Part shown: piece by piece, positions 18,001 to 64,000 of the stretch | How the letters are laid out: every line of letters starts with the position of its first letter | Numbering within the stretch: the first letter of the stretch is position 1 | Position numbers: made by a program | NCBI RefSeq assembly: GCF_031769215.1 | Contig: NW_026782580.1 | Location: 1,178,001-1,242,000 of the forward strand | DNA length: 64,000 bases | Reading direction: 5' to 3' | From: Ylistrum balloti | Taxonomy: Eukaryota

Positions 18001-21000
18001 CGAGTGCGTTACCACTGCACCACCCTGTATAAAACTTGATCTAGCTCTTTCAATTTCACTCATTCCTCAAAGATAAAATTTGTCACTGCAGCACCTCCCT
18101 TTAACTTAGTAGGGTGTATTATCTACAGCACTCCCCGTAACTAAGTGAAGGGTATTATCTTACAAAGATTTCATGTTATGAAGATCCACCTAAACAAGTA
18201 ATGAACACACATTTATGGTCATCAAGTTTCATTTAATGATTGTTTTGGATATTTTGGTCTTCAAATAATAAACAATATTTTCTGCAGCCTGACAGAGTAT
18301 AGCTGGGGAGAAAATATTCTGATAGATTTTACTTTACCAGTATAACTGATAACGCAATCAGCAGGTGGCATTTTCCCCTCGGGACACTTTGCTTGATACA
18401 TGATGACTATCAAAAAATCATTTGTGATAGATGTCAGTCATCTCCCAAGTTTAAATTCCTAGACACATAACATTTACTAGGTGTAAAGTGGTCAAGTCAT
18501 GGTGTCCTTCATGTTATCATCACTAGTTTTGACATCCTGTGCTGTCTGGTTTAGCGTTGATTGGTGTGCTGACGAAGTGTCCATCTTGAGAACTTCGCGT
18601 AGAGCCATGGTTGCGTAGCAGGCAGGAGGAAGTGTCATCTCTAGCTTCAGGGCTTTCAAAGAACCACCTACAACATTTTAATGACTTCATAATTTTAGTA
18701 AAGAGGAACAAGAAGACCTGCTCAGCAGTCAGGAGAGTCTTTAAAGCAACAGGTCAGGTTGATGGACCTTAACAGTCATCTGACAAAGTTCCAAACCCTG
18801 GTCCAATTCTGTTTATTTCTAAAACTTGAAATGCAGCCTTTCATTCTTCACTCACTAGGATATCTACTGCCTATATAATTCAGCCTTACAGGATTGTTTG
18901 TTAAAATTTACCCCAATGGTCTTCTATAACCCCAGGGACTTTTCCTAACAGCTTGAAATCTTTATACTTTCAGGACTTTGCAGCCAAATCCATTTACTTG
19001 TGAAAATTACAACTGCTGTTTCTGATGGGTAAACTCTTTTACCTTTAGGAGTAGCAACTTCATTTTATCATAACAGATTCTCATTTGTGAAAGTCATATG
19101 ATCAGCAAAATGTTAGAAAATAGGTGGTAACATTTTTTTCCAATATTTAGAGGATCTGTCATGAGTTTCCTTTCATATTACATTCTGATACAGTTTTGAA
19201 TTTTTAATCTTTAAAAGCCTTTCAGCAAGTAAAAATAAGAAGTGACCGAAGGGGCCTGCATTCTTCAACTGGCTTATTCAGCTATTCAGTCATTTAACAC
19301 AGAATTTCAAATATGATAGATGATTTCTCAAAGACTTTTCGTATTGGGTCCTGCCTTTGTTGTCAAATATGTCAGATTCACTATTCATATAAATTGCTTC
19401 AGATCATACTTGGAGAACATCCATATTAACACGATATTAACAACTTACATTTTTCCTAATTGGCCCCACATCTCTGATGGACTCCTGGTTTATACAAAAT
19501 GTGGTTCCTTTCAACTTAGCATGCTTCAGACCAAATTAGTACAGAATCAAGGCATTCCCACAAAAGAAGGATTTTAGAGAATTTCCTCTATTTCCACTAT
19601 ACCACCCAGCCTTAGAAAGCGAAGACAAAATTGATTTCCCTTCATCTAACGATGCTTCAGACCAAAGTTAGGCAAAAACCAATCATTCCTACAGCTGTAT
19701 TACCCCTATTGGCCCCACCCCAGCAGGTGGAGACCTACTGTTTATACAAAATTGATGCTTCAGGCCAGGTGAGCTAAAAATAATTTCTACATAATTTATT
19801 TGCTAAATGGAGGTTAAGATGCATGATTTTTTCAAACTTTGGCACTGAGACAAATACGAGATCTGACCTGGTATAGACTGCGGTTCAGGCTTCCCTTCAA
19901 GTCTGTCCATATCACTAAGCACAATTGGCTGCATCACATCATTGTACAGGTATGTCTGCCAGGTCACATCCTTTGGTCTGGTCAGCATCTTCCTGTAGGT
20001 GCCTTTCAGCATGTACTGCCTGTAATATATATAGAACAGATCTACATCTTCCTGTAGGTGCCTTTCAGTGTGTACTGTAATATATATAGAACAGATCTAC
20101 ATCTTCCTGTAGGTGCCTTTCAGTGTGTACTGTAATATATATAGAACAGATCAACATCTTCCTGTAGGTGCCTTTCAGCGTGTACTGTATTATATATAGA
20201 ACAGATCAACATCTTCCTGTAGGTGCCTTTCAGCGTGTACTGTAATATATATAGAACAGATCAACATCTTCCTGTAGGTGCCTTTCAGTGTGTACTGTAA
20301 TATATATAGAACAGATCAACATCTTCCTGTAGGTGTCTTTCAGCATGTACTGTAATATATATAGAACAGATCAACATCTTCCTGTAGGTGTCTTTCAGTG
20401 TGTACTGTAATATATATAGAACAGATCAACATCTTCCTGTAGGTGCCTTTCAGTGTGTACTGTAATATATATAGAACAGATCTACATCTTCCTGTAGGTG
20501 CCTTTCAGTGTGTACTGTAATATATATAGAACAGATCTACATCTTCCTGTAGGTGCCTTTCAGTGTGTACTGCCTGTAATATATATAGAACAGATCAACA
20601 TCTTCCTGTAGGTGCCTTTCAGTGTGTACTGCCTGTAATATATATAGAACAGACCAACATCTTCCTGTAGGTGTCTTTCAGTGTATACTGCCTGTAATAT
20701 ATATAGAACAGATCTACATCTTCCTGTAGGTGCCTTTCAGCATGTACTGTAATATATATAGAACAGATCAACATCTTCCTGTAGGTGCCTTTCAGTGTGT
20801 ACTGTAATATATATAGAACAGATCAACATCTTCCTGTAGGTGCCTTTCAGTGTGTACTGCCTGTAATATATATAGAACAGATCAACATCTTCCTGTAGGT
20901 GCCTTTCAGTGTGTACTGTAATATATATAGAACAGATCAACATCTTCCTGTAGGTGCCTTTCAGTGTGTACTGTAATATATATAGAACAGATCAACATCT

Positions 21001-63000: not shown

Positions 63001-64000
63001 ACGATAGTAAGAGTTGTATACAGAGTGTAGATATTTAGTGGGACGATTGTAAGTGTTGTATACAGAGTGTAGATATTTAGTGGGACGATAGTAAGAGTTG
63101 TATACAGAGTGTAGATATTTAGTGGGACGATAGTAAGAGTTGTATACAGAGTGTAGATATTTAGTGGGACGATAGTAAGAGTTGTATACAGAGTGTAGAT
63201 ATTTAGTGGGACGATAGTAAGAGTTGTATACAGAGTGTAGATATTTAGTGGGACGATAGTAAGAGTTGTGTACAGAGTGTAGATATTTAGTGGGACGATA
63301 GTAAGAGTTGTGTACAGAGTGTAGATATTTAGTGGGACGATAGTAAGAGTTGTGTACAGAGTGTAGATATTTAGTGGGACGATAGTAAGAGTTGTGTACA
63401 GAGTGTAGATATTTAGTGGGACGATAGTAAGAGTTGTGTACAGAGTGTAGATATTTTGGGACGATAGTAGTGGGACGAGTAAGTGTTGTATACAGAGTGT
63501 ATTTGTACAGAGTGTAGATATTTAGTGGGACGATAGTAAGAGTTGTGTACAGAGTGTAGATATTTAGTGGGACGATAGTAAGAGTTGTGTACAGAGTGTA
63601 GATATTTAGTGGGACGATAGTAAGAGTTGTGTACAGAGTGTAGATATTTAGTGGGACGATAGTAAGAGTTGTGTACAGAGTGTAGATATTTAGTGGGACG
63701 ATAGTAAGAGTTGTGTACAGAGTGTAGATATTTAGTGGGACGATAAGAGTTGTGTACAGAGTTGTGTACAGAGTGTAGATATTTAGTGGGACGATAGTAA
63801 AGTTGTATACAGAGTGTAGATATTTAGTAAGAGTTGTATACAGAGTGTATATGTATATAGTTGTGTACAGAGTGTAGATATTTAGTGGGACGATAGTAAG
63901 AGTTGTGTACAGAGTGTAGATATTTAGTGGGACGATAGTAAGAGTTGTGTACAGAGTGTAGATATTTAGTGGGACGATAGTAAGAGTTGTGTACAGAGTG

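What the first reader, a model, noticed from the sequence alone, without database searches (positions are those of the whole stretch)
18492..64000. Recurring pattern: private satellites nucleate at splice junctions
Seen: eleven arrays with mutually unrelated units occur in 64 kb, six inside PUS7 introns. Three of these overlap or abut a splice site, and a fourth candidate lies at 62172. Inference: short tandem duplications spanning a junction regenerate one intact site at the edge of the array, so they survive and can expand into the intron, giving a route to intron growth and decoy splice sites. I do not know this described as a genome-wide mechanism. The sample is small, and a chance association in a repeat-rich genome is possible.
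Basis: inference. Interest (0 to 1): 0.65.

Follow-up and report, generated by a model that had tools for sequence, protein, structure and literature searches.

The report
Intron satellites seeded at splice junctions
In a scallop PUS7 gene, four intronic tandem-repeat arrays are amplified copies of the sequence that crosses a neighbouring splice junction; they lengthen the introns and leave rows of spare splice sites, a structure already known from a few human genes.

Summary
The window is scallop DNA. Its PUS7 exons translate 100% identically to the public Ylistrum balloti PUS7 protein.

- There are eleven array complexes with unrelated units.
- Six lie in PUS7 introns, plus a weak seventh.
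- A fourth, the 51-bp array, reaches the exon-10 acceptor through degenerate copies.

In all four, interior units align to sequence that crosses the junction, exon bases included (about 38, 24, 24 and 4-6 nt). They therefore arose by tandem duplication across an existing junction. Only the copy contiguous with the exon gives the annotated protein.

These four arrays make up 5.7 kb, 29% of the gene's intron DNA. Intron 14 is 97% array and carries 48 decoy acceptors that all keep their AG.

The candidate at 62172 has no detectable exon.

Random placement predicts about one junction-spanning array among seven (P about 0.008-0.06). This is one gene, noticed post hoc, and the genome-wide test could not be run.

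The kind is already described. Minisatellites whose first monomer spans an exon-intron boundary are known in human F7, CBS, 6-16, LAMIN B2 and PDGF. New here are the acceptor-side arrays, four arrays in one gene, and a mollusc.

The parts
18492..39969 (-). PUS7 coding region, 16 coding exons (start codon at 39969, stop included at 18492)
   Evidence: tblastn with P0001 (Ylistrum balloti PUS7, 671 aa) gives 100% identical exons. Exact threading gives 14 GT-AG introns and one GC-AG intron. TruD Pfam hits on single exons.
19982..22738 (-). 55/59-bp array in intron 14: 48 decoy units plus the true junction copy. Each unit is about the last 21 nt of the intron plus the first 34-38 nt of exon 15.
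   Evidence: Unit list: 30 units of 55 nt, 14 of 59, 1 of 63, and 3 more in the first two lines. First 40 nt of exon 15 against interior units: 35/38 identical, 0 of 5000 null segments as good. 49 in-register AG sites.
19868..20019 (-). Exon 15. Its acceptor at 20019/20020 is the last (3'-most) copy of the array.
27781..28382 (-). 51-bp array in intron 9. The homogeneous part is 27992-28366. Degenerate units run on through the acceptor of exon 10 (27804/27805) to about 24 nt inside the exon.
   Evidence: Junction -40..+25 against the unit: 0 of 5000. Region 28010-27775 aligns to about 5 consecutive units, score 71 against shuffles 15.9 +/- 3.9, maximum 32 of 300. Self-BLAST extends the array to 27907-28382.
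29477..29682 (-). 47-bp array, 4.4 copies. Copy 1 is the last 24 nt of exon 8 plus the first 23 nt of intron 8. Copies 2-5 are intronic.
   Evidence: Sequence. Copies 2-4 are 40/47, 41/47 and 38/47 identical to copy 1. Partial copy 5 is 19/19. Exon-only test against copies 2-5: 0 of 5000.
31694..34129 (-). 24-bp array of about 94 copies in intron 6. It starts at the donor of exon 6 (exon ends at 34124), and the periodicity reaches 4-6 nt into the exon.
   Evidence: TRF 31694-34116. Fixed-register matches run through the GT and 5 of the last 6 exon nt. Last 6 exon nt plus first 24 intron nt against interior units: 20/24, 0 of 5000. Intron part alone: 3 of 5000. Exon-only alignment is not significant (3189 of 5000).
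29930..30443 (-). 42-bp array in intron 7, 29 nt from the donor of exon 7. No junction homology.
   Evidence: Test 4464 of 5000.
38686..39692 (-). 80-bp array in intron 1, 59 nt from the donor of exon 1. A diverged two-unit block lies at 37867-38036, beside a SINE-like repeat.
   Evidence: Weak similarity of intron positions about +10 to +34 to edge units, 27 of 5000, uncorrected.
24198..24935 (-). 146-bp low-identity array in intron 12, more than 400 nt from either junction. No junction homology.
   Evidence: Score 16 against shuffles 14.1 +/- 2.2.
46754..47747 (.). 44-bp array, outside any recognised gene
48756..49713 (.). 69-bp array that ends 85 nt before a reverse-transcriptase ORF. A solo unit lies at 53535-53614.
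53756..56374 (.). 46/83-bp compound array upstream of a second LINE-like element
62174..64000 (.). No exon found beside it.

Best explanation
Four of the seven tandem arrays in the PUS7 introns arose when a short segment (24-59 nt) that straddles an existing splice junction was duplicated in tandem and then amplified.

After such a duplication only one copy is still joined to the rest of the exon. That is the first copy for a donor and the last copy for an acceptor. It keeps working as the splice site. Every other copy, with its piece of former exon and its own splice signal, becomes intron.

Unequal exchange or replication slippage then multiplies the units, and the intron grows:
- Intron 14 went from roughly 80-130 nt to 2796 nt.
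- Intron 6 gained 2.4 kb.

Rows of decoy splice sites are left behind. Using any decoy would bring a stop codon into the message, so such transcripts should be lost.

Shown: unit-to-junction homology including exon bases; the position of the arrays relative to the functional copy; the share of intron DNA.

Inferred: the duplication mechanism; the order of events; which sites the cell really uses. The last rests only on the annotated protein.
For: Gene model. The exon map is exact: 671 of 671 residues of P0001 thread onto 16 exons.

55/59-bp array:
- 48 units, each holding the acceptor plus the first 34-38 exon nt.
- Exon-only test 35/38 identical, 0 of 5000.
- The first unit is preceded by about 90 nt of unique intron that starts with the donor of exon 14, so the intron existed before the array.
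- A 173-nt higher-order period fits unequal exchange.

47-bp array:
- Copy 1 is 24 exon nt plus 23 intron nt.
- Intronic copies are 38-41 of 47 identical to it.
- Exon-only test 0 of 5000.

51-bp array: continuous alignment of about five degenerate units through the acceptor into exon 10.

24-bp array: periodicity runs through the donor GT into 4-6 exon nt.

Only the outermost copy reproduces the residues of P0001.

The first decoy-ward codons hold stops.

Arrays make up 7678 of 19462 intron nt. The four junction-anchored ones make up 5699.

The same architecture, with the same choice of the most upstream donor, is documented experimentally for the human F7 IVS7 minisatellite.
Against: - For the 24-bp array the exon part is only 4-6 nt, and an exon-only alignment is not significant (3189 of 5000). 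It may merely begin at the donor.
- Three of the seven intronic arrays (42, 80 and 146 bp) show no junction homology.
- None of the 35 weaker repeats in the gene spans a junction.
- No transcript data were available. Use of the last of 49 near-identical acceptors is taken from the annotated protein, not observed. A crude matrix from this gene's own 15 acceptors scores the decoys like the true site.
- Array length and even presence depend on one assembly. No second genome could be consulted.
Confidence: 0.85

Rival explanations
1. Chance: ordinary intronic minisatellites of a repeat-rich bivalve genome that happen to lie next to junctions, with no causal link to splice sites.
For: - The window is very repeat-rich, with eleven to twelve arrays in 64 kb.
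- Random placement already predicts 1.01 junction-spanning arrays of 7. P(>=3) is only 0.061.
- The finding was noticed post hoc.
- Three arrays lack junction homology.
- None of the 35 weaker repeats spans a junction.
Against: Position is not the main evidence. Units of three arrays contain 19-38 nt of recognisable exon sequence, 0 of 5000 null segments each. That cannot come from an unrelated satellite landing nearby. With four arrays counted, P = 0.0079 (7 arrays) or 0.0021 (6 arrays).
Confidence: 0.08
2. Transposon cargo: the arrays are internal tandem repeats of mobile elements (as in Helentron-borne satellite-like arrays of oysters) that inserted into PUS7 introns.
For: - Such arrays are reported for Crassostrea gigas (PMC7492417, search listing and start of abstract only).
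- The 80-bp unit has a second, diverged block beside a SINE-like repeat.
- The 69-bp unit has a solo copy 3.8 kb away. Two arrays sit just upstream of LINE-like ORFs.
- This may well hold for the arrays without junction homology.
Against: The 55-, 47-, 51- and 24-bp units have no other copy in the window. They align in register with the local exon-intron junction. A mobile element would not carry the first 38 nt of PUS7 exon 15.
Confidence: 0.05
3. Assembly artefact: a short junction duplication (two or three copies) was inflated into long arrays by the assembler.
For: Only one assembly was seen. Tandem arrays are error-prone. A search with an 88-aa array ORF found no predicted protein from any other source.
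Against: The arrays are not uniform. They hold 55-, 59- and 63-nt unit variants, a 173-nt higher-order pattern, scattered point differences, and degenerate edge copies. There are no N runs in the window. Even a two-copy version would keep the main conclusion about origin.
Confidence: 0.05

Closest known systems
Human minisatellites whose first monomer spans an exon-intron boundary: F7 IVS7 (37 bp), interferon-inducible 6-16 intron 2, CBS IVS13, LAMIN B2, PDGF intron 4 (Borensztajn et al. 2006, PLoS Genet, PMC1557585; abstract and Introduction read)
   Same: An intronic tandem array whose terminal unit holds the last exon bases plus the donor, so the donor is reiterated downstream. Only the most upstream site (or the first two or three) is used. 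The 47-bp and 24-bp arrays here have this layout.
   Different: - Two arrays here are the mirror image, on the acceptor side. The last copy is functional, with up to 48 decoy acceptors upstream. My one search for that layout found none in print.
- There are four such arrays in one gene.
- The organism is a mollusc.
- There is no transcript or polymorphism evidence here.
Intron gain by tandem duplication of an exonic AG/GY proto-splice site (Rogers 1989 and Zhuo et al. 2007 seen only in a reference list; Lehmann et al. 2010, PMC2891723, passages)
   Same: A tandem duplication supplies a spare splice signal. One copy of former exon sequence is turned into intron. Decay of mis-spliced messages is invoked to make the step tolerable.
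   Different: No new intron is created here. The duplication straddles an existing junction and lengthens an existing intron. The donor of intron 14 lies in unique sequence outside the repeat.
Internal tandem repeats at exon-intron boundaries of human genes in segmental duplications (De Grassi and Ciccarelli 2009, PMC2812944, passages)
   Same: Variable tandem repeats located at exon-intron boundaries that change intron structure and splicing pattern.
   Different: Those repeats were found by comparing recent paralogues and mostly involve exonic repeats that become spliced out. Here single-copy gene introns carry long arrays. Their Table S3 is in a supplement that I could not open.
Satellite-like arrays dispersed by Helentron non-autonomous elements in the Pacific oyster (PMC7492417; search listing only)
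   Same: Short tandem arrays scattered through gene-rich DNA of a bivalve.
   Different: Units of the four junction arrays derive from the local exon-intron junction, not from a mobile element.

Membership tests
Minisatellite with terminal monomer spanning an exon-intron boundary (F7 IVS7 type) | Head-to-tail array located in an intron | tested here: met
   TRF and the exon map: 55-, 51-, 47- and 24-bp arrays in introns 14, 9, 8 and 6.
Minisatellite with terminal monomer spanning an exon-intron boundary (F7 IVS7 type) | The terminal monomer contains exon bases plus the splice site, and interior monomers are homologous to it | tested here: met
   Exon-only tests give 0 of 5000 for the 55- and 47-bp arrays. 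Junction test gives 0 of 5000 and a five-unit alignment for the 51-bp array. For the 24-bp array only 4-6 exon nt are involved: 0 of 5000 with the intron part, not significant alone.
Minisatellite with terminal monomer spanning an exon-intron boundary (F7 IVS7 type) | The splice signal is reiterated as pseudo-sites in the array | tested here: met
   
- 48 decoy AG sites in register in intron 14.
- 77 in-register donor-like 9-mers among the three commonest forms in intron 6.
- Two usable decoy donors of three in intron 8.
- Weaker AAG decoys in the young 51-bp units, and two CAG decoys in the old ones.
Minisatellite with terminal monomer spanning an exon-intron boundary (F7 IVS7 type) | Only the outermost (authentic) site is used in mature mRNA | not testable with these tools
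   No transcript data. Only the outermost copy reproduces the annotated protein P0001. That protein is itself a prediction.
Minisatellite with terminal monomer spanning an exon-intron boundary (F7 IVS7 type) | Copy number varies between alleles (VNTR) | not testable with these tools
   One haplotype only.
[quoted passage not shown] | Both ends of the intron derive from the two copies of the duplicated segment, and the intron is new | tested here: not met
   The donor end of intron 14 and about 90 nt after it are unique sequence outside the repeat. The acceptor ends of introns 6 and 8 are far from, and unrelated to, the arrays. Whether the intron positions are old could not be checked in other genomes.
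Transposon-borne satellite-like arrays of bivalves (Helentron type) | The same unit is present at other loci, and the array is flanked by element ends | tested here: inconclusive
   Within the 64-kb window the four junction units have no second locus. The 80-bp and 69-bp units do have one. The rest of the genome could not be searched.

The most novel reading that the evidence does not exclude
In this scallop, and perhaps in bivalves generally, splice junctions are preferred seeds or preferred survivors for minisatellite expansion. Junction-spanning duplication would then be a quantitatively important route of intron growth.

The acceptor-side arrays show that a cell can pick the last of about fifty near-identical 3' splice sites. 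That points to choice by exon context rather than by scanning from the branch point. Intron 14 of PUS7 would then be a natural 49-site competition experiment.
Probability: 0.2. Interest if true: 0.7.

Novelty: new variant of a known kind. Interest (0 to 1): 0.5.

Why it matters
Origin. The origin of these arrays can be read directly from the sequence, which is rare for satellites.

Intron growth. A 24-59-nt slip across a junction grew into kilobases of intron. In one gene this accounts for 29% of the intron DNA.

Splice-site choice. It gives two natural tests:
- A row of about 90 weak donors and a few strong ones behind the true donor.
- 48 acceptors, indistinguishable by sequence from the true one, in front of it. 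This second test is less expected.

A general route. If a genome-wide count confirmed an excess at junctions, it would add a measurable, transposon-free route of intron expansion in repeat-rich invertebrate genomes.

Annotation. Decoy copies of exon starts can mislead gene prediction.

Tried and rejected
- Exon beside the 62174 array: six-frame translation and a periodicity walk found none.
- Junction homology of the 42-bp array: exon 7 end plus intron start 4464 of 5000; distal flank 4975 of 5000; exon 8 acceptor 524 of 5000. Rejected.
- 146-bp array: a 17-nt match to the exon 13 acceptor tract (24 of 5000) did not hold. It occurs in one unit only, and the wider alignment is no better than shuffles (16 against 14.1 +/- 2.2).
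- 80-bp array: weak likeness to intron 1 positions +10 to +34 (27 of 5000, uncorrected for about a dozen tests). Left as a hint.
- Nascent two-copy duplications at junctions: 0 of the 35 weaker repeats in the gene.
- Array ORF in other sources: a search with an 88-aa ORF of the 55-bp array returned nothing at 48-154 aa.
- TRF at a lower score did not extend the 51-bp array. Alignment did.
- ARAGORN found no tRNA, although Rfam did.
- My first homology tests used consensus units that include the exon-overlapping copy. This makes them circular for the 47-bp array. I repeated them against strictly intronic copies.
- A splice-site matrix built from only 15 sites of this gene is crude. I use it only for rough ranking.
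Full report
**Source of the window**

The window has no N. It is not human. One PUS7 exon searched on its own found scallop proteins first. tblastn with the best hit, P0001, gave 100% identical exons on the minus strand. P0001 is named by NCBI 'pseudouridylate synthase 7 homolog [Ylistrum balloti]' and is 671 aa long.

Threading P0001 on the window fixed 16 coding exons from 39969 to 18492. There are 14 GT-AG introns and one GC-AG intron, intron 13.

I searched exons one at a time. I did not build or search a joined coding sequence, so that step was left out.

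Other content of the window:
- An intronless F-box/LRR ORF at 43312-44589.
- Two LINE-like elements.
- A tRNA match at 40945-41063.

**The observation**

TRF gives eleven array complexes plus a weak twelfth. Among 14 consensus units, only two pairs are related. Each pair belongs to one complex. The units are therefore mutually unrelated within the window.

'Private' holds only within the window, and not completely:
- The 69-bp unit has a solo copy at 53535-53614.
- The 80-bp unit has a diverged block at 37867-38036, next to a SINE-like repeat.

Six arrays lie in PUS7 introns, seven with the 146-bp one. Together they make up 7678 of 19462 intron nt.

**The four junction arrays**

1. Intron 14 (22815-20020).
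- About 90 nt of unique intron come first. Then follow 48 units of 55, 59 or 63 nt, then the true junction.
- Each unit is about the last 21 intron nt, with the AG, plus the first 34-38 nt of exon 15.
- The first 40 nt of exon 15 match interior units 35/38. None of 5000 array-free control segments scores as high.
- All 48 decoys keep an AG. Of the 49 in-register sites, 15 (the true acceptor among them) share the true junction's 9-mer.
- The 59-nt variant carries the same four extra bases as the true junction. The 55-nt variant lacks them.
- A 173-nt higher-order period is present.
- The intron is 2719 of 2796 nt array.

2. Intron 8.
- Copy 1 of the 47-bp array is the last 24 nt of exon 8 plus the first 23 nt of the intron.
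- Copies 2-4 are 40, 41 and 38 of 47 identical to copy 1. A partial fifth copy is 19 of 19.
- The exon-only test against the strictly intronic copies gives 0 of 5000.
- Of the three decoy donors, one is destroyed, one is shifted by one base, and one scores higher than the true site.

3. Intron 9.
- TRF stops the 51-bp array 187 nt before exon 10.
- The stretch 28010-27775 nevertheless aligns without a break to about five consecutive units. The alignment crosses the acceptor and ends about 24 nt inside the exon.
- Its score is 71, against 15.9 +/- 3.9 and a maximum of 32 in 300 shuffles.
- The junction segment alone gives 0 of 5000. Its exon part alone gives 45 of 5000.
- Old, diverged copies lie next to the exon. 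The young, homogeneous block lies further in.

4. Intron 6.
- The 24-bp array has about 94 copies. It starts at the donor itself.
- The fixed-register periodicity runs through the GT and matches 5 of the last 6 exon bases, then stops.
- The last 6 exon nt plus the first 24 intron nt align to interior units 20/24, with 0 of 5000. The intron part alone gives 3 of 5000.
- An exon-only alignment is not significant. The exon share of this unit is therefore small and less certain.

**The arrays without junction homology**

- The 42-bp array lies 29 nt from the donor of exon 7. It shows none.
- The 80-bp array lies 59 nt from the donor of exon 1. It shows only a weak, uncorrected hint inside the intron (27 of 5000).
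- The 146-bp array shows none.
- The array at 62174 has no exon beside it in any frame.

**Is it more than chance?**

The main evidence is homology, not position. A satellite that merely landed near a junction would not contain the neighbouring exon.

For position, I placed seed duplications of the observed unit lengths at random over the array-free introns (11784 nt, 30 junctions). Results:

| Measure | 7 arrays | 6 arrays |
|---|---|---|
| Expected junction-spanning | 1.01 | 0.70 |
| P(>=3) | 0.061 | 0.023 |
| P(>=4) | 0.0079 | 0.0021 |

For array edges within 60 nt of a junction, P(>=5 of 7) = 0.019.

These are nominal values from one gene that was flagged because it looked striking. Against a general bias at the seeding step: none of the 35 weaker repeats in the gene (34 of period 14 bp or less, one of 31 bp) spans a junction. 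About one or two would be expected, so this is weak evidence either way.

**Mechanism**

Shown:
- Units derive from junction-spanning segments.
- The array always lies on the intron side of the copy that continues into the exon.
- Only that copy reproduces P0001.
- The first codons beyond the true donors, and the array units read from decoy acceptors, contain stops.

Inferred:
- A first tandem duplication by slippage or unequal exchange.
- Later amplification by unequal exchange. The higher-order repeat fits this.
- Loss of mis-spliced messages by nonsense-mediated decay.
- Gradual weakening of decoys.

On the last point, the decoys look weaker than or similar to the true site in the 24-bp and 51-bp arrays. 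They do not in the young 55-bp array (95% matches).

For donors, the choice of the first copy matches what was shown by mutagenesis for human F7. There, identical downstream pseudo-sites stay silent (abstract and Introduction).

For acceptors the productive site is the last of 49. This is not what scanning from a branch point to the first AG would give (recalled textbook model, no call). Definition of exon 15 from its own donor, 152 nt downstream, is my inference. Only transcripts can settle it.

**A detail on timing**

The third codon of exon 15 is Met in this species, Thr in Pecten maximus and Ile in an unnamed scallop protein. Most units carry a Thr codon. Three carry the CpG-containing Thr codon and three the Met codon. 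This fits seeding from a Thr allele followed by CpG decay in both directions. It is inference only.

**Comparison with what is known**

- Borensztajn et al. [quoted passage not shown] They list F7, 6-16, CBS, LAMIN B2 and PDGF. The 47-bp and 24-bp arrays are new members of that kind.
- De Grassi and Ciccarelli 2009 describe tandem repeats at exon-intron boundaries that modify introns (passages). Their supplementary table could not be opened.
- Lehmann et al. 2010 (passages), and Rogers 1989 and Zhuo et al. 2007 (reference list only), cover intron gain by tandem duplication. That model is not met here, because the donor of intron 14 lies outside the repeat.
- Oyster Helentron arrays (listing only) are a fair rival for the arrays without junction homology, but not for the four.
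- I found no description of the acceptor-side layout in one search. Nor did searches turn up a genome-wide test of junction seeding. This is a limited search of open-access text, not proof of absence.

**Verdict**

The origin by junction-spanning duplication is well supported for this gene. The kind is known from human genes. The acceptor-side arrays, the clustering of four in one gene and the scale of intron growth are a new variant. The proposed genome-wide rule is untested. No related eukaryotic genome, transcript data or paper supplements could be consulted.

Noticed in passing
window 40945-41063 (+): Rfam tRNA match (47.9 bits) spread over 119 nt for a 71-position model, so probably an intron-containing tRNA gene or a tRNA-derived SINE head. 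It lies about 1 kb upstream of the PUS7 start. ARAGORN in its bacterial setting found nothing.
   Followed up: partly
window 10191-10355, 10439-10609, 38040-38204 (-): Three copies of a SINE-like repeat of about 165 nt, 86-98% identical. One lies in PUS7 intron 1, directly beside a diverged two-unit block of the 80-bp satellite (37867-38036).
   Followed up: partly
window 48756-49713, 49798-52408 and 53535-53614: The 69-bp array ends 85 nt before a reverse-transcriptase ORF that lacks an endonuclease part, so it looks like a 5'-truncated LINE. One solo 69-bp unit (94% identical) sits 3.8 kb further on, upstream of the 46/83-bp array and a second LINE-like element with endonuclease and RT (56904-60223). 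The two LINEs share no nucleotide similarity.
   Followed up: partly
window 385-6040: A 5.6-kb complex of a 27-bp satellite with 54-, 81-, 113- and 454-bp higher-order periods, outside the finding's range. No gene was recognised between it and PUS7.
   Followed up: no
window 23395/23396 (intron 13 donor): Intron 13 of PUS7 has a GC-AG boundary. It is the only non-GT donor of the 15.
   Followed up: no
window 29477-29495: The distal partial copy of the 47-bp array is 19 of 19 identical to the exon 8 sequence, while the three full copies between them differ from it at 6-9 of 47 positions. No explanation so far. Gene conversion or a pre-existing direct repeat are possible.
   Followed up: no
window 43312-44589 (+): An intronless ORF of 425 codons with F-box and leucine-rich-repeat Pfam domains lies 3.3 kb upstream of PUS7 on the other strand.
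   Followed up: no
window 20000-22700, third codon of the exon 15 copy in each unit: Units carry three states of one codon: most a Thr codon, three the CpG-containing Thr codon, three the Met codon of the true exon. Pecten maximus has Thr and an unnamed scallop protein Ile at this residue. The pattern looks like CpG decay after the array was seeded.
   Followed up: partly
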